Shown: positions 22,493 to 27,609 of the stretch, piece by piece | Layout: each line of letters starts with the position of its first letter | How positions within the stretch are numbered: the stretch's first letter is position 1 | NCBI RefSeq assembly: GCF_055900595.2 | Contig: NZ_CM148325.1 | Length of the DNA stretch: 64,000 bases | Strand: one strand, 5' to 3' | Notes under the pieces: generated by a model | What the model saw: only the letters and a program-made list of their open reading frames with translations | The model's database searches: none | Told to the model about the DNA's origin: nothing | Made by a program: the position numbers and the translations under genes

Positions 22493-24160
22493 GTGGCTCA
22501 ATTCGTTTATACCATGCATCGTGTCGGCAAAGTTGTTCCGCCGAAACGTCATATTTTGAAAAACATCTCTCTGAGTTTCTTCCCTGGGGCAAAAATTGGT
22601 GTCCTGGGTCTGAACGGCGCGGGTAAGTCTACCCTGCTGCGCATTATGGCGGGCATTGATAAAGACATCGAAGGTGAAGCGCGTCCGCAACCGGATATCA
22701 AGATTGGTTACCTGCCGCAGGAACCTCAGCTGAACCCGGAACACACCGTGCGTGAGTCCATTGAAGAAGCGGTTTCTGAAGTGGTTAACGCTCTGAAACG
22801 TCTGGATGAAGTGTATGCGCTGTATGCCGATCCGGATGCCGATTTTGACAAGCTGGCCGCTGAACAAGGCCGTCTGGAAGAGATCATTCAGGCTCATGAC
22901 GGTCATAACCTGAACGTTCAGCTGGAGCGTGCGGCTGATGCGCTGCGTCTGCCGGACTGGGACGCGAAAATCGCTAACCTTTCCGGTGGTGAGCGTCGTC
23001 GCGTGGCGTTGTGCCGCCTGCTGTTGGAAAAACCAGACATGCTGCTGCTCGACGAACCGACCAACCACCTGGATGCCGAATCCGTAGCGTGGCTGGAACG
23101 CTTCCTGCACGACTTCGAGGGCACCGTGGTGGCGATTACCCACGACCGTTACTTCCTCGATAACGTTGCAGGCTGGATCCTCGAACTTGACCGCGGTGAA
23201 GGTATTCCGTGGGAAGGTAACTACTCCTCCTGGCTGGAGCAGAAAGATCAGCGTCTGGCGCAGGAAGCTTCACAAGAAGCAGCGCGTCGTAAGTCGATCG
23301 AGAAAGAGCTGGAGTGGGTACGTCAGGGAACTAAAGGCCGTCAGTCGAAAGGTAAAGCACGTCTGGCGCGCTTTGAAGAGCTGAACAGCACCGAATATCA
23401 GAAACGTAACGAAACCAACGAACTGTTTATTCCACCTGGACCGCGTCTGGGCGATAAAGTGCTGGAAGTCAGCAACCTGCGTAAATCTTACGGCGATCGT
23501 CTGCTGATTGATGATCTGAGCTTCTCGATCCCTAAAGGGGCGATCGTCGGGATCATCGGTCCGAACGGCGCGGGTAAATCAACCCTGTTCCGTATGATCT
23601 CTGGTCAGGAACAGCCAGACAGCGGCACCATCACTTTAGGTGAAACGGTGAAACTGGCATCTGTCGATCAGTTCCGTGACTCAATGGATAACAGCAAAAC
23701 CGTTTGGGAAGAAGTTTCCGGCGGGCTGGATATCATGAAGATCGGTAACACCGAGATGCCAAGCCGCGCCTACGTTGGCCGCTTTAACTTTAAAGGGGTT
23801 GATCAGGGTAAACGCGTTGGCGAACTCTCCGGTGGTGAGCGTGGTCGTCTGCATCTGGCGAAGCTGCTGCAGGTTGGCGGCAACATGCTGCTGCTCGACG
23901 AACCGACCAACGACCTGGATATCGAAACCCTGCGTGCGCTGGAAAACGCCCTGCTGGAGTTCCCGGGCTGCGCGATGGTTATCTCGCACGACCGTTGGTT
24001 CCTCGACCGTATCGCCACACACATTCTGGATTACCAGGATGAAGGTAAAGTTGAGTTCTTTGAAGGTAACTTTACCGAGTACGAAGAGTACAAGAAACGC
24101 ACGCTGGGCGCAGACGCGCTGGAGCCGAAGCGTATCAAGTACAAGCGTATTGCGAAGTAA
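22493..24160 (+). CDS. ettA: energy-dependent translational throttle EttA (ABC-F ATPase, YjjK)
   Basis: 555-aa ORF with two ABC cassettes (GLNGAGKST…LSGGERRR…LLLDEPTNHLD; GPNGAGKST…LSGGERGR…LLLDEPTNDLD). Confidence 0.95.
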   Translation: MAQFVYTMHRVGKVVPPKRHILKNISLSFFPGAKIGVLGLNGAGKSTLLRIMAGIDKDIEGEARPQPDIKIGYLPQEPQLNPEHTVRESIEEAVSEVVNALKRLDEVYALYADPDADFDKLAAEQGRLEEIIQAHDGHNLNVQLERAADALRLPDWDAKIANLSGGERRRVALCRLLLEKPDMLLLDEPTNHLDAESVAWLERFLHDFEGTVVAITHDRYFLDNVAGWILELDRGEGIPWEGNYSSWLEQKDQRLAQEASQEAARRKSIEKELEWVRQGTKGRQSKGKARLARFEELNSTEYQKRNETNELFIPPGPRLGDKVLEVSNLRKSYGDRLLIDDLSFSIPKGAIVGIIGPNGAGKSTLFRMISGQEQPDSGTITLGETVKLASVDQFRDSMDNSKTVWEEVSGGLDIMKIGNTEMPSRAYVGRFNFKGVDQGKRVGELSGGERGRLHLAKLLQVGGNMLLLDEPTNDLDIETLRALENALLEFPGCAMVISHDRWFLDRIATHILDYQDEGKVEFFEGNFTEYEEYKKRTLGADALEPKRIKYKRIAK

Positions 24161-24171
24161 TGCGTAAAATG

Positions 24172-24201
24172 CCGGATGCGGCGCGCCAGCATCGCATCCG
24201 G
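24172..24201. terminator. REP-like hairpin between the convergent ettA and antitoxin stop codons
   Basis: CCGGATGCG-(12 nt)-CGCATCCGG inverted repeat. Confidence 0.5.
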
Positions 24202-24215
24202 TAATAGTTAAATGA

Positions 24216-24500
24216 TTAATGGGAGGCAAGTTCCCGGAAAAAGGCAGGATTTTCTTTAATTGTGGCAAGTACTTTTGCAGCCAATCCCGTAGGATTTCTT
24301 CGCTTCGATTCCCAGCTTTTAATGGTATCCACACTGGTTCCCAGAGCTTTTGCCATCTCACTTTGCGAAACGTTGAGTTGCTCACGAATAGCTTTAACAT
24401 CCGCAATTTCGTAGCGGGTCACCCGTGCAGGTTCTTTTAAACCTTGTTTAATCTCGACAGCCTCTTCCAGAGAGGTTTTCAACTCATCAAAAAAACTCAT
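24216..24500 (-). CDS. XRE-type helix-turn-helix antitoxin (HigA-like)
   Basis: 94 aa from ATG at 24500 (MSFFDELKTSLEEAVEIKQGLKEPARVTRYEIADVKAIREQLNVSQSEMAKALGTSVDTIKSWESKRRNPTGLAAKVLATIKENPAFFRELASH); SD GAGG 8 nt upstream; starts 1 nt after the toxin stop. Confidence 0.75.
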   Translation of the reverse strand: MSFFDELKTSLEEAVEIKQGLKEPARVTRYEIADVKAIREQLNVSQSEMAKALGTSVDTIKSWESKRRNPTGLAAKVLATIKENPAFFRELASH

Positions 24501-24501
24501 T

Positions 24502-24834
24502 TTATACCTCACCTTTGAGCAGTTTCGTCAACTTCTTTAGTTGAGCTTTTTCCGTATCTGTCAGACTGTCTTTGGCATTCTTCGGATAGGCCATAATCAA
24601 ATAAATAATCTCTTCCGTCGCCAGAAAGTAAATTATTCTGACACTACCACTTTTTCCCTGTGAACCCGCAGCCATTCGGACTTTACGCAATCCACCAGTC
24701 TGCTGAATGAGATCACCTTTATCGGGAGTTCCGATGAGTTCTTTTTGCAATTCCTTTAATTCATCATCGGTTGCAATCTGCTTGATCTGACGCGTAAACA
24801 TTGGCGTCTCTATAAATATTATCGCCTTGCCCAT
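24502..24834 (-). CDS. RelE/ParE-superfamily toxin, HigB-like (Gp49-type)
   Basis: 110 aa from ATG at 24834 (MGKAIIFIETPMFTRQIKQIATDDELKELQKELIGTPDKGDLIQQTGGLRKVRMAAGSQGKSGSVRIIYFLATEEIIYLIMAYPKNAKDSLTDTEKAQLKKLTKLLKGEV); conserved GGLRKxR…GKSGxxRxIY core; SD GGAGG upstream. Confidence 0.75.
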   Translation of the reverse strand: MGKAIIFIETPMFTRQIKQIATDDELKELQKELIGTPDKGDLIQQTGGLRKVRMAAGSQGKSGSVRIIYFLATEEIIYLIMAYPKNAKDSLTDTEKAQLKKLTKLLKGEV

Positions 24835-24850
24835 TACCCCTCCCTGGCAG

Positions 24851-24884
24851 GTACATTGTACACCAAAATGGAGTACTAAGTACA
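24851..24884 (-). promoter_or_regulatory. putative operator and promoter of the toxin-antitoxin operon (two GTAC-core inverted repeats)
   Basis: GTACA-T-TGTAC at 24851-24861 and GTACT-A-AGTAC at 24874-24884, in the 91 bp between nadR stop and toxin start. Confidence 0.45.
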
Positions 24885-24925
24885 CTTTTGAATCAGTAAT
24901 ATCACTCAACATCTTATAAAGATGA

Positions 24926-26158
24926 TTATCCCTGCTCCCCCATCATCTCCCGCACCAGCTCCACGCAGCGCAGGAAACGGCTGTCGTAATCGTCCTCTTC
25001 AACCCGCACAAATTCGATATTGTTCTTTTCCAGCATCTCCACCAGCAAGTTCTGGAACTCTTTGCGATCCACCGAACTGCCGAGACTGCGTAAACCATCC
25101 GCCACCCACGGCGTGTTGTTCTCCAGCAGAATCACCAGATCGAAACGGTATTCATCGATCAGCGCCTGTACGAACGGATGCTCGCGCCCTTCGTACTTTT
25201 TGCAGAACGCCTGAGTTGTCACAAAATCGGTGTCGATAAACGCCACTTTATTGGCATATTTTACTGCAAAATCAATATATTGAGCGTGTCCAAGTGCGAT
25301 TTTATCGTAGTCGGAATACTGCAATGCAATCTCATCGCCGCCAAGATGCGAAAAGACATAATCGCGACCATATTCCCATGCACTGGTAGTGTTGAAGATA
25401 TTGGCAAGTTTGTTTACCAGGGTGGATTTACCGCTCGATTCGCCGCCGAGGATCGCCACGGTGCGCACAAAGAACGGCTTCACTTCGGTAGGAATATATT
25501 CCCAGTAGCGGAACGGATTTTCGCGGATCTGCGCACCACTGATACTCATAAAAGTACGTTTCGGATCGACCAACACCGTTTCGATCCCCAGATGTTCCAT
25601 ATACTGCGGCGCGTCGGCTTCTTCCGAGGTGTAGATCAGATCCGGTTGGATCCCTTTTTCAGCCATAAACTTTTTGATGCCGTTGCTCCACACATCCCAG
25701 CCATGCGGATACGGCTCCATGCCCTCTTCGTTGAAGGCATGAATGCGAATATTTTTCTGATATTTAAAAGTTTGCAATAACCAGCGCAGACGATCCGGCA
25801 CCGTGGGCTGCTGCGACATGGCGCTATCTTCGAACAACGCGCGGTCGCGGGTATCGTCAAAGCCCATAATGATATGCAGTTCGTCAACCTGACTACAGGC
25901 ACGCTGGATAAGGTAGATATGTCCGGTATGCAGCGGGTAAAACTTACCGAATACAACACCAATAGTTTTCTTCTGCCGGGGAAATTCAAGTCCCAAATAA
26001 CGGTGCAACGCCTCCAGCTTTTGCGCGCTGGGGCTTTTAATTTTGGCATTCAGTAACTGGCTTAAATACCCTTTGGTCATACCGCTGGCATCAGCCACCT
26101 GCTGTAGCGTACAGCCCTGTTGCTTGATGGCAGTTTTCAGATAATCAAATGACGACAT
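24926..26158 (-). CDS. nadR: trifunctional NAD biosynthesis/regulator protein NadR
   Basis: ORF 24926..26179; NadR N-terminus MSSFDYLKTAIKQQGCTLQQVADASGMTKGYLSQLLN begins at an internal Met, giving 410 aa. Confidence 0.93.
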   Translation of the reverse strand: MSSFDYLKTAIKQQGCTLQQVADASGMTKGYLSQLLNAKIKSPSAQKLEALHRYLGLEFPRQKKTIGVVFGKFYPLHTGHIYLIQRACSQVDELHIIMGFDDTRDRALFEDSAMSQQPTVPDRLRWLLQTFKYQKNIRIHAFNEEGMEPYPHGWDVWSNGIKKFMAEKGIQPDLIYTSEEADAPQYMEHLGIETVLVDPKRTFMSISGAQIRENPFRYWEYIPTEVKPFFVRTVAILGGESSGKSTLVNKLANIFNTTSAWEYGRDYVFSHLGGDEIALQYSDYDKIALGHAQYIDFAVKYANKVAFIDTDFVTTQAFCKKYEGREHPFVQALIDEYRFDLVILLENNTPWVADGLRSLGSSVDRKEFQNLLVEMLEKNNIEFVRVEEDDYDSRFLRCVELVREMMGEQG

Positions 26159-26178
26159 ATCTCCCTCCGTATCTCTCA

Positions 26179-27561
26179 TTATAAGTCGTCGAACACGCTA
26201 AGCGCGTCGGAGAGTTTTTTAACGCCAAAAATCTGCATCCCTTCCGGCGCTTTTTTCGGCACGTTGGCTGCCGGAACAATCGCCCGCCGAAAACCATGTT
26301 TCGCCGCTTCAGAAATCCGCTCCTGGCCGCTGGGCACCGGGCGGATCTCCCCTGCCAGCCCGACTTCACCAAACACCACCAGATCCTGCGGTAGTGGTCT
26401 GTCGCGCAGGCTGGAAACCATCGCCAGCAGTAACGCTAAATCGGCACTGGTTTCGGTTACCTTCACGCCACCGACCACGTTAACAAACACATCCTGATCG
26501 GCCATTTGCAACCCACCGTGACGGTGAAGCACCGCCAGCAGGATTGCCAGACGGTTTTGCTCCAGCCCTACTGCCACGCGGCGTGGATTCGCCATCATCG
26601 AGTGATCGACCAGCGCCTGGATCTCCACCAGCAGCGGACGCGTTCCTTCCCACACCACCATCACTGAGCTGCCGGAGGTCACTTCATCGCCGCGACTTAA
26701 GAAAATTGCCGAAGGGTTACTGACTTCACGCAGTCCCTGTTCAGTCATCGCGAAGACGCCCAGCTCATTCACCGCGCCGAAACGGTTTTTATGGCTGCGT
26801 AAGGTGCGGAAACGGGAATCGGCATCGCCATCCAGAAGCACCGAACAGTCAATACAGTGTTCCAGCACTTTAGGGCCAGCCAGCGAACCATCTTTGGTTA
26901 CGTGCCCCACCATGACAATCGCCACACCGCGCGTTTTGGCGAAGCGCGTCAGATAAGCCGCCGTTTCACGCACCTGTGCCACGCTGCCAGGCGATGACTG
27001 AACATCCGCCATATGCATCACCTGGATGGAGTCAATGACCATCAGCTTCGGTTGCTCTTCTTCGGCAATCAGGCAGATCTGTTCGATGCTGGTTTCCGAC
27101 AACATATTGAGATTGTCAGTCGGCAGGCCGAGGCGATGAGCGCGCATTGCCACCTGTTGCAGCGACTCTTCGCCAGTGACATATAGCGTTTTCATCTGCT
27201 GCGCCAGTTTGCACAGCGTTTGCAGTAGCAGCGTGGATTTCCCCGCGCCTGGGTTACCGCCAATCAGAATAGCGCTTCCTGGCACTACGCCACCGCCTAA
27301 TACGCGGTCGAACTCTTTAAATCCGGTGGAAAAACGCGGCAACTCCTCAAGGCTGATATCGGAAAGTTTCTGGACTTTTGCCACCCCGGCGCTACCGGCA
27401 TAGCCACTGAGACGCTCGTTACGCGCCACCGTTGGCGACGCAGCAAGACGCACCTCGGTGATGGTGTTCCAGGCATGGCAGGCGCTGCACTGCCCCTGCC
27501 AGCGCGGATAATCGGCCCCGCATTCATTACAAACAAAGGCGCGTTTTGGAGCTTTTGCCAC
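26179..27561 (-). CDS. radA: DNA repair protein RadA (Sms)
   Basis: ORF 26179..27609; zinc finger CNECGADYPRWQGQCSACHAWN, Walker A GNPGAGKST, Lon-like C-terminus; likely GTG start at (M)AKAPKRAFV. Confidence 0.92.
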   Translation of the reverse strand: MAKAPKRAFVCNECGADYPRWQGQCSACHAWNTITEVRLAASPTVARNERLSGYAGSAGVAKVQKLSDISLEELPRFSTGFKEFDRVLGGGVVPGSAILIGGNPGAGKSTLLLQTLCKLAQQMKTLYVTGEESLQQVAMRAHRLGLPTDNLNMLSETSIEQICLIAEEEQPKLMVIDSIQVMHMADVQSSPGSVAQVRETAAYLTRFAKTRGVAIVMVGHVTKDGSLAGPKVLEHCIDCSVLLDGDADSRFRTLRSHKNRFGAVNELGVFAMTEQGLREVSNPSAIFLSRGDEVTSGSSVMVVWEGTRPLLVEIQALVDHSMMANPRRVAVGLEQNRLAILLAVLHRHGGLQMADQDVFVNVVGGVKVTETSADLALLLAMVSSLRDRPLPQDLVVFGEVGLAGEIRPVPSGQERISEAAKHGFRRAIVPAANVPKKAPEGMQIFGVKKLSDALSVFDDL

Positions 27562-27609
27562 GGTGTACCTCGTTAATGCTGTGCCGCCCGCAGGATGACG
27601 GGCGGGCAA

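What the first reader, a model, noticed from the sequence alone, without database searches (positions are those of the whole stretch)
24847..24890. Paired GTAC-core inverted repeats in the toxin-antitoxin promoter: candidate autoregulatory operator
The 91 bp between the nadR stop and the toxin start contain two short palindromes, GTACA-T-TGTAC (24851-24861) and GTACT-A-AGTAC (24874-24884), roughly two helical turns apart and next to the toxin SD. Type II TA operons are typically autorepressed by the HTH antitoxin binding such palindromes.
Basis: seen in the sequence. Interest (0 to 1): 0.4.

Follow-up and report, generated by a model that had tools for sequence, protein, structure and literature searches.

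The report
Conserved antitoxin operator in TA promoter
The two short GTAC palindromes in front of this E. coli toxin-antitoxin pair are real, and the same motif recurs in front of related gene pairs in many other bacteria, so they are almost certainly where the antitoxin (NadS) binds to switch off its own operon, which is an ordinary kind of regulation newly pinned to a precise motif.

Summary
These are the only two GTAC-N3-GTAC matches in the 64-kb window. They lie 22 bp apart in the 91-bp spacer between nadR and a HigB2-type toxin gene (24502-24834, minus strand), which is followed by the HTH antitoxin NadS (24216-24500).

In 80 related loci from several bacterial orders, 89 of 93 exact GTAC-N3-GTAC matches sit in the module's promoter position. 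Of 65 loci with a full toxin gene, 58 have one or two copies 16-42 nt before the toxin start. Eight other loci (seven of these 65, plus L060) carry the motif directly before nadS instead. The flanks are unconserved, the N3 gap never varies, and decayed loci lack the site.

More distant relatives with a different recognition helix carry the V. cholerae HigA2-type operator (TACGC-N5-GCGTA). The palindromes overlap the best promoter-like hexamers (TGTACT-18-TACAAT).

The autoregulatory-operator reading is strongly supported by comparative evidence, but binding has not been shown. It is a new member of a known kind, of modest interest.

The parts
24851..24863 (-). Proximal operator. The palindrome GTACATTGTAC occupies 24851-24861, plus a conserved AC/GT flank. 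On the coding strand it reads GT-GTAC-AAT-GTAC and contains the -10-like hexamer TACAAT (24860->24855).
   Evidence: Homologous position is conserved in 58/65 loci. Unchanged in E. coli variants that differ elsewhere in the spacer.
24873..24885 (-). Distal operator. The palindrome GTACTAAGTAC occupies 24873-24883, plus the AC/GT flank. On the coding strand it reads GT-GTAC-TTA-GTAC and overlaps the -35-like hexamer TGTACT (24884->24879).
   Evidence: A second copy 19-22 bp upstream of the first occurs in 18 related loci.
24855..24884 (-). Inferred sigma-70 promoter TGTACT-18 nt-TACAAT (8 of 12 matches), with a predicted start near 24848.
   Evidence: My relaxed scan. The stricter tool scan found no promoter on this strand in the spacer. 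In 30/58 related loci the best promoter-like match has its -10 at the same offset inside the proximal palindrome. This is an inference; the start site is not mapped.
24837..24845 (-). Shine-Dalgarno sequence AGGGAGGGG of the toxin gene.
   Evidence: Direct reading of the sequence.
24502..24834 (-). Toxin gene, 110 aa, HigB-2 type (RelE/ParE superfamily).
   Evidence: Pfam PF06296, E=4.6e-10. PDB HigB-2, E=7.5e-17. RefSeq annotation of the identical locus.
24216..24500 (-). Antitoxin gene nadS, 94 aa: an N-terminal toxin-binding helix or disordered region followed by a C-terminal XRE-type HTH. This is the presumed repressor.
   Evidence: NCBIfam NF041265 NadS, 182.6 bits, and Pfam HTH_3. PDB HigA-2, E=2e-6. 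The AlphaFold model matches HigA2 chains at 1.0-1.4 A over 60 residues.

Best explanation
The two 11-bp palindromes are the operator sites of the toxin-nadS operon. A fuller consensus is RGT-GTAC-NNN-GTAC-ACY.

Proposed mechanism:
1. Each palindrome binds one dimer of the HTH antitoxin NadS, alone or in complex with the HigB2-type toxin.
2. One reading head contacts each GTAC half-site.
3. The two sites lie about two helical turns apart, on one face of the DNA, over the -35-like (TGTACT) and -10-like (TACAAT) hexamers.
4. Occupancy therefore blocks RNA polymerase and autorepresses the operon.

Shown here: the motif exists, it is statistically unusual, it is conserved at this position across distant taxa, it travels with nadS, and it covaries with the recognition helix.

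Inferred: NadS is the binding protein, one dimer binds per palindrome, the promoter hexamers and start site are as stated, and binding represses transcription.
For: 1. Rarity. The only two GTAC-N3-GTAC matches in 64 kb are here, 22 bp apart.

2. Conservation. In 80 NadS loci from Enterobacterales, Halomonadaceae, Nitrosomonas, Cellvibrionaceae and others, 89 of 93 exact matches in 396 kb lie at the module's promoter position. Four lie elsewhere, against about 6 expected. Of 65 loci with a full toxin, 58 have a site 16-42 nt before the toxin start. Eighteen have two sites spaced 21 bp (11 loci), 22 (3), 20 (2) or 19 (2).

3. Phylogenetic footprint. Flanking columns carry about 0.24 bit and 31% pairwise identity. 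The eight GTAC letters and the 3-nt gap are invariant, while the gap letters vary.

4. The motif follows nadS. In eight loci where the toxin and nadS are separated by about 65 nt, the single GTACTATGTAC lies 36-37 nt before the nadS ATG, not before the toxin. Orphan or decayed nadS loci, including the K-12 allele, lack it.

5. Covariation with the recognition helix:
- Helices of the type S-V/I-D-T-I-K-S-W-E go with GTAC-N3-GTAC. This still holds at 36-44% identity in Pantoea, Klebsiella and Y. ruckeri plasmids, each with two sites 28-30 bp apart.
- Helices of the type S-x-R-T-L-Q-N-W-E (Bartonella, Acinetobacter) go with TACGC-N5-GCGTA or a near match. That is the footprinted and crystallised V. 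cholerae HigA2 operator, TGTACGC-N5-GCGTACA (PMC11006873).

6. Homology of the protein. NadS is a HigA2 homologue by sequence and by predicted fold.

7. Within E. coli. Variant alleles carry 4-5 substitutions in the 91-bp spacer and none in either palindrome.

8. Precedent for the geometry. MqsA, a related HTH antitoxin, binds AACCT-N3-AGGTT, and its promoter has two such palindromes (PMC4894380).
Against: - There are no binding, footprint, reporter or start-site data for this protein or DNA.
- The promoter assignment is weak by consensus. The -35 matches 3 of 6 positions, and the tool's own scan found nothing on this strand.
- GTAC itself supplies the letters TA of the -10 match, which biases the promoter-overlap statistic.
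- Half-sites only 7 bp apart are short for a classical HTH dimer. This differs from the closest solved relative, HigA2, so the actual contacts may involve the GT/AC flanks.
- Related loci are not phylogenetically independent.
- Anchoring the footprint on exact matches makes the 2.0-bit columns circular. The non-circular statistic is the fraction of loci with a match.
Confidence: 0.85

Rival explanations
1. The conserved GTAC blocks are primarily promoter elements (a -35-like TGTACA and a -10-like TACNNT) kept for RNA polymerase recognition, not for a repressor.
For: The best promoter-like match has its -10 inside the proximal palindrome in 30/58 loci. The distal palindrome often supplies TGTACA as the -35. 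The third letter of the central triplet is T in 44/58 proximal sites but only 9/18 distal sites.
Against: Sigma-70 promoters do not require a dyad-symmetric GTAC-N3-GTAC with invariant spacing. All eight letters are invariant, including the second GTAC, which lies outside the -10. In Photorhabdus and Xenorhabdus loci a better promoter (TTGTAA-16-TAGAAT) lies upstream, with the palindrome at about +1. The motif changes with the antitoxin's recognition helix. The two roles are not exclusive.
Confidence: 0.05
2. The functional unit is not each 11-bp palindrome but one longer inverted repeat spanning the two inner GTACs (TGTACAcc-N5-ggAGTACT, GTAC starts 15 bp apart). One dimer would bind it as in V. 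cholerae HigA2, where the GTAC starts are 13 bp apart.
For: The V. cholerae operator TGTACGC-N5-GCGTACA contains GTAC in each arm (PMC11006873). The four GTACs here are symmetric about 24867.
Against: Forty of 58 loci have only one 11-bp palindrome. The N3 gap never varies, whereas the distance between palindromes ranges over 19-22 bp, and 28-30 bp in distant relatives. The eight loci with the motif in the toxin-nadS spacer have a single palindrome.
Confidence: 0.04
3. A factor other than NadS recognises the palindromes, for example NadR from the upstream gene or another host protein.
For: The sites lie directly downstream of nadR. No binding data exist.
Against: In other genera the motif accompanies the module with quite different upstream neighbours, and also on plasmids. 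The only DNA-binding protein that always travels with it is NadS. From my own knowledge, the NadR box is TGTTTA-N6-TAAACA, which is unrelated.
Confidence: 0.03
4. The element acts at the RNA or single-strand level, as a hairpin that terminates or attenuates nadR read-through or stabilises the mRNA.
For: The two palindromes could pair with each other in a nadR read-through transcript. The MFE structure of the spacer includes stems in this region.
Against: The fold is no better than shuffled sequence (z=-1.35; 23/200 shuffles fold as well). There is no Rfam match and no terminator-like site on this strand. A 5-bp arm with a 1-nt loop cannot fold on its own. Most related loci have one palindrome only.
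Confidence: 0.02
5. The palindromes are chance matches without function.
For: Short palindromes are common. Pairs of generic 5-1-5 palindromes within 35 bp occur about 2.65 times per simulated window.
Against: The specific motif recurs at the same place in about 70 independent loci against a chance rate of about 0.002 per 130 nt.
Confidence: 0.01

Closest known systems
Vibrio cholerae HigB2-HigA2 (higBA2) and its operator (PMC11006873; PDB 8a0w, 8a0x, 5jaa, 5j9i)
   Same: - Toxin-first gene order.
- A PF06296 HigB-2-type toxin.
- An antitoxin with an N-terminal toxin-binding segment and a C-terminal XRE HTH.
- A dyad-symmetric operator immediately upstream of the toxin gene, overlapping promoter hexamers.
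- Both operators contain GTAC.
   Different: - V. cholerae has one operator, TGTACGC-N5-GCGTACA (19 bp, GTAC starts 13 bp apart). Here there are two 11-bp GTAC-N3-GTAC sites with GTAC starts 7 bp apart.
- Three of the four base-reading residues differ: Vc R68/E71/N72/R77 correspond to Ec D58/K61/S62/R67.
- The HTH domains are only about 30% identical.
E. coli MqsR-MqsA and the mqsRA promoter palindromes (PMC4894380)
   Same: - Toxin-first operon.
- The antitoxin HTH domain is related (Pfam MqsA_antitoxin E=5.6e-4, TIGR03830 E=1.2e-9; fold match 3fmy).
- The operator is a short palindrome with a 3-nt gap (AACCT-N3-AGGTT).
- The promoter holds two such palindromes.
   Different: - Different half-site letters (ACCT versus GTAC).
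- MqsA has an N-terminal zinc-binding domain, which NadS lacks.
- MqsR is a different toxin family.
- The MqsA palindromes are about 32 bp apart, against 22 bp here.
Acinetobacter baumannii HigBA2 (pAB120; PMC5906591)
   Same: The same broad family: PGAP also labels the Acinetobacter antitoxins NadS. Reporter assays show autorepression by the antitoxin, with the toxin acting as co-repressor.
   Different: Only about 37-39% identical. The recognition helix is SARTLQNWEQ and the upstream dyad is HigA2-like (TACGCcattgACGTA), not GTAC-N3-GTAC. That paper did not define an operator sequence.
parE-3/yiaG-2 (TA30) of adherent-invasive E. coli (PMC7232551)
   Same: By its description this is the same locus: a toxin-antitoxin pair in the nadR-ettA spacer that is absent from K-12 and HS.
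   Different: That paper is a catalogue entry only. It names the toxin ParE-like and says nothing about promoter or operator.

Membership tests
HigBA2 / NadS-type type II toxin-antitoxin module | The toxin belongs to the HigB-2 branch of RelE/ParE (PF06296). | tested here: met
   Pfam PF06296, 40.2 bits against a cut-off of 27. PDB HigB-2, E=7.5e-17 over residues 6-102.
HigBA2 / NadS-type type II toxin-antitoxin module | The antitoxin has a C-terminal XRE-type HTH domain of the HigA2 fold and an N-terminal toxin-binding segment. | tested here: met
   NF041265 NadS, 182.6 bits against a cut-off of 60. HTH_3. HigA-2, E=2e-6. The AF2 model has a helix at 3-18, a low-confidence linker at 26-29 and five helices at 35-93. 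Best PDB matches are 8a0x_A, 5jaa and 5j9i, at rmsd 1.0-1.4 A over 60 residues. Toxin binding by the N-terminus is inferred, not tested.
HigBA2 / NadS-type type II toxin-antitoxin module | Toxin gene first, with the antitoxin gene immediately downstream. | tested here: met
   Toxin at 24834->24502. The nadS ATG is at 24500, one base after the toxin stop.
Autoregulatory operator of a type II TA operon | A dyad-symmetric site in or next to the operon promoter, conserved with the module. | tested here: met
Autoregulatory operator of a type II TA operon | Specific binding by the cognate antitoxin or TA complex. | not testable with these tools
   This needs EMSA, footprinting or ITC. The indirect support is covariation of motif and recognition helix and the motif following nadS.
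Autoregulatory operator of a type II TA operon | Overlap with the -35/-10 hexamers or the transcription start, so that binding represses transcription. | tested here: inconclusive
   TGTACT-18-TACAAT overlaps both sites, but the tool's stricter scan finds no promoter on this strand and no start site is mapped.
V. cholerae HigA2-type operator (TGTACGC-N5-GCGTACA) | A 7-bp arm, TGTACGC, with a 5-bp spacer, as a single site. | tested here: not met
   Here the arms are GTAC with a 3-bp gap, in two sites. The HigA2-type dyad is found instead in the Bartonella and Acinetobacter relatives.
MqsA-type operator (AACCT-N3-AGGTT) | The half-site letters ACCT/AGGT. | tested here: not met
   The half-sites are GTAC. 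Only the 4-N3-4 geometry and the two-site layout are shared (PMC4894380).

The most novel reading that the evidence does not exclude
GTAC-N3-GTAC may be a portable combined promoter and operator of the NadS clade, in which the operator half-sites themselves supply the -35-like (TGTACA) and -10-like (TACNNT) hexamers.

In one subgroup (Enterobacter, Lelliottia, Trabulsiella) this cassette has moved between the two genes. There the antitoxin would be autoregulated from its own promoter, while the toxin sits behind a LexA-box-like site. That would be a type II module whose toxin and antitoxin are transcribed under separate controls, with the toxin possibly SOS-inducible.

A weaker variant of this reading is that free NadS also controls other genes carrying the motif, as MqsA does.
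Probability: 0.25. Interest if true: 0.5.

Novelty: new member of a known kind. Interest (0 to 1): 0.3.

Why it matters
This gives a precise, testable operator (RGT-GTAC-N3-GTAC-ACY) for a toxin-antitoxin family that is widespread in Enterobacterales and on plasmids and that PGAP labels only as "NadS family protein".

- It links that label to the structurally characterised HigA2 family.
- It offers a natural series relating recognition helix to operator (GTAC-N3-GTAC, CTAC-N3-GTAG, TACGC-N5-GCGTA), which is useful for studying HTH specificity.
- It explains what the small "nadS" gene of E. coli K-12 is: a relic of the antitoxin that has lost its DNA-binding domain, its operator and its toxin.

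The regulatory principle itself, autorepression of a type II TA operon, is textbook.

Tried and rejected
- The tool's sigma-70 and terminator scan of 24100-25100 found no promoter or terminator on the minus strand in the spacer. The promoter proposed here comes from a looser scan.
- RNA folding of the 101-nt spacer was not better than shuffles, and there was no Rfam match at E<=1, so an RNA element was rejected.
- Literature searches for NadS, NadS family, HigB2 and PF06296 found no description of this operator. They found only a catalogue entry for the locus (PMC7232551) and expression evidence for the K-12 relic (PMC12350097).
- NadR as the binding protein was rejected because the motif accompanies the module where nadR is not the neighbour.
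- A single long dyad across the inner GTACs was rejected on spacing variability and on the many single-site loci.
- Not attempted: a genome-wide scan of a host E. coli for further sites (no suitable tool remained), and modelling of a NadS dimer on DNA (only single chains can be predicted here).

Full report
**What is in the window**

The window is E. coli. On the minus strand lie radA (26179-27609) and nadR (24926-26179). These are followed by a 110-aa toxin gene (24502-24834) and a 94-aa antitoxin gene (24216-24500). ettA converges on the plus strand (22493-24160).

The toxin matches Pfam PF06296 and V. cholerae HigB-2 in the PDB (E=7.5e-17). The antitoxin is an equivalog-level match to NCBIfam NF041265, "NadS family protein" (182.6 bits). 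It carries an XRE-type HTH and matches V. cholerae HigA-2 over residues 33-91 (E=2e-6).

An AlphaFold model built on a 19-sequence alignment has mean pLDDT 76.8. It shows an N-terminal helix (3-18), a low-confidence linker (26-29) and a five-helix C-terminal domain. Its best PDB matches are HigA2 chains (8a0x_A, 5jaa, and 5j9i at 1.0-1.4 A over 60 residues). C.Kpn2I and the MqsA C-terminal domain come next.

**The observation**

On the plus strand, GTACATTGTAC is at 24851-24861 and GTACTAAGTAC at 24873-24883. Together they form a 13-nt direct repeat, GTAC-N3-GTACAC, 22 bp apart.

The spacer from the nadR stop to the toxin ATG is 91 bp. On the coding strand the proximal palindrome ends 16 nt before the ATG, just ahead of the SD AGGGAGGGG.

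GTAC-N3-GTAC occurs only at these two places in 64 kb. The expectation is 0.35 from dinucleotide shuffles and 0.28 from a Markov model. Four GTAC in 33 bp is the densest cluster in the window by a wide margin. Generic palindrome pairs are not rare, so the shared sequence is what matters.

**Comparative test**

NadS is 74-98% identical across many genera. A scan of one genome per species returned 80 loci, L004-L083. They come from Enterobacterales, Halomonadaceae, Nitrosomonas, Cellvibrionaceae, Bowmanella and several metagenome-assembled genomes.

I located the toxin and nadS in each locus by tblastn and extracted the upstream DNA. The results were:

- Of 65 loci with a full-length toxin, 58 have at least one exact GTAC-N3-GTAC within 16-42 nt of the toxin start.
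- Eighteen loci have two copies, with start-to-start spacing of 21 bp (11 loci), 22 (3), 20 (2) or 19 (2).
- Over all 396 kb of locus DNA there are 93 exact matches. Of these, 77 are at the toxin-upstream position, 8 in a toxin-nadS spacer, 4 upstream of shortened toxin remnants and 4 elsewhere. About 6 would be expected by chance for eight specified bases.
- Around the proximal site, flanking columns carry about 0.24 bit and 31% pairwise identity. The central triplet carries 0.4-0.9 bit.
- The immediate flanks are partly conserved: G at -2 in 52/58 loci, T at -1 in 50/58, and a pyrimidine at +2 in 58/58. This suggests a 17-bp dyad, RGT-GTAC-NNN-GTAC-ACY.

The 2.0-bit value of the GTAC columns is circular, because I anchored the alignment on exact matches. 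The meaningful number is the fraction of loci that have a match at all.

**The motif follows nadS**

The seven full-toxin loci without a site upstream of the toxin (L050, L053, L058, L059, L065, L070, L074), together with L060, form a subgroup. In these loci the toxin and nadS are separated by about 65 nt. That spacer holds a single GTACTATGTAC 36-37 nt before the nadS ATG.

Loci in which the toxin has decayed and the promoter is gone lack the motif. These are L004, L007, L008, L011, L071, L072, L076, L082 and L083. The motif therefore tracks an expressed nadS, the only DNA-binding protein that always accompanies it.

**Covariation with the recognition helix**

A tblastn search of plasmids found 713 records. 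I read ten diverse loci.

| Locus or loci | Identity to the E. coli NadS | Recognition helix | Upstream dyad |
|---|---|---|---|
| V. parahaemolyticus L084 | 69.5% | SIDTIKSWESKRRNP | GTACTATGTAC |
| Pantoea L086, Klebsiella L087, Y. ruckeri L092 | 36-44% | SVDLIRSWEQ, SVDLVRSWEQ, SASLLQSWEQ | two GTAC-N3-GTAC, 28-30 bp apart |
| Citrobacter L085 | 48% | SSSLVQSWEQGLRTP | TCCTAC-ACT-GTAGGA (same geometry, different letters) |
| Bartonella L089 | 43% | SVRTLQNWEQ | ATACGCC-AAT-GGCGTAT |
| Acinetobacter L090, L091 | 37-39% | SARTLQNWEQ | TACGCcattgACGTA |

The last two rows match the V. cholerae type. HigA2 (helix SSRTLENWEQ) was footprinted and crystallised on TGTACGC-N5-GCGTACA. That site runs from just after the -35 across the -10, with R68, E71, N72 and R77 reading bases (PMC11006873).

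These four positions correspond to D58, K61, S62 and R67 in the E. coli protein, and all four are invariant in the close NadS clade. I found no clear dyad in Salmonella L088 or Aminobacter L093.

**Within E. coli**

Of 5,426 complete genomes, 673 carry the full module. Two alleles that are about 98% identical carry 4-5 substitutions in the 91-bp spacer, and none touches either palindrome or its GT flank.

All other genomes sampled have a deletion running from just after the nadR stop to the last ~30 nt of the toxin gene. In addition, the 3' half of nadS is replaced by REP sequence.

**Mechanism**

The invariant 3-nt gap points to each 11-bp palindrome being the binding unit for one NadS dimer. 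So do the many single-site loci and the variable distance between sites. The alternative, a longer dyad across the inner GTACs, fits these facts poorly.

This 4-N3-4 geometry, and the two-palindrome promoter, are those of MqsA (AACCT-N3-AGGTT; PMC4894380). MqsA's HTH domain is related to that of NadS.

On the coding strand, TGTACT (24884->24879), an 18-nt spacer and TACAAT (24860->24855) form the best promoter-like match. That match predicts a start near 24848 and a leader of about 14 nt. Supporting observations from related loci are:

- In 30 of 58 related loci the best match has its -10 at the same offset inside the proximal palindrome.
- In two-site loci the distal palindrome usually supplies TGTACA as the -35.
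- The third letter of the central triplet is T in 44/58 proximal sites but only 9/18 distal sites, as expected for a TANNNT -10.

This promoter assignment is an inference. The stricter tool scan found nothing on this strand, and GTAC contributes two of the -10 letters, which biases the overlap statistic.

By analogy with HigA2, repression needs both the HTH dimer and the disordered N-terminus, and the HigB2-HigA2 tetramer also sits on operator DNA in 8a0x (PMC11006873). In Acinetobacter HigBA2 the toxin acts as co-repressor (PMC5906591). NadS, alone or with toxin, should likewise occlude the promoter and autorepress the operon.

**Rejected alternatives**

- An RNA element is unlikely. The fold z-score is -1.35, there is no Rfam match and no terminator on this strand.
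- NadR or another host factor is unlikely, because the motif accompanies the module in unrelated contexts and on plasmids.
- Chance is excluded by the comparative counts.

**Novelty**

The locus is catalogued as parE-3/yiaG-2 (TA30) in adherent-invasive E. coli, without any analysis of regulation (PMC7232551). I found no paper describing a NadS operator in the library searched. That library does not cover most subscription journals.

The finding is therefore a new, well-defined member of a known kind: an autoregulatory operator of a type II TA operon. Interest is modest.

Noticed in passing
L003:1498-1698 (E. coli K-12 derivative) and L002:1576-1776 (O157), compared with window 24216-24925: In most E. 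coli the nadR-ettA spacer carries a decayed copy of this module. The operators and nearly all of the toxin gene are deleted. The annotated 55-aa 'nadS' is the first 38 residues of the antitoxin fused to REP-derived codons, with no HTH domain. PMC12350097 reports this relic as expressed in K-12. Only 673 of 5,426 complete genomes keep the intact pair.
   Followed up: partly
L050:2004-2019, L053:1998-2013, L058:2000-2015, L059:1999-2014, L065:2000-2015, L070:1999-2014, L074:2130-2145: In a subgroup (Enterobacter, Lelliottia, Trabulsiella, Pseudenterobacter) a LexA-box-like CTGT-N8-ACAG, for example CTGTATATAAATACAG, lies about 100 nt upstream of the toxin ATG. The GTAC palindrome has moved to a ~65-nt toxin-nadS spacer. 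This suggests separate control of toxin (possibly SOS) and antitoxin.
   Followed up: partly
L007, L011, L071 (no toxin remnant); L008, L072, L076, L082, L083 (toxin 3' remnants): Orphan nadS genes with a missing or truncated toxin are frequent across genera. They lack the GTAC-N3-GTAC site, so antitoxin-only relics seem to persist often.
   Followed up: no
L085:~497-511 (Citrobacter freundii plasmid): This relative has the dyad TCCTAC-ACT-GTAGGA, with outer G->C relative to GTAC. Its helix has Leu where NadS has R67. The equivalent V. cholerae R77 contacts guanine O6 (PMC11006873). This is a single-case hint that R67 reads the outer G.
   Followed up: no
window 24165-24205: A REP-like G+C-rich hairpin (GCCGGATGCG...CGCATCCGGC) lies between the convergent stops of nadS and ettA. 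It is probably a bidirectional terminator or REP element. The K-12 allele has additional REP copies here.
   Followed up: no
window 24910-24924 and 24920-24948: Short AT-rich inverted repeats straddle the nadR stop: CATCTT/AAGATG, and AGATGAT/ATCATCT. No T-run follows, so nadR probably lacks a terminator of its own and may read through into the toxin-antitoxin operon.
   Followed up: no
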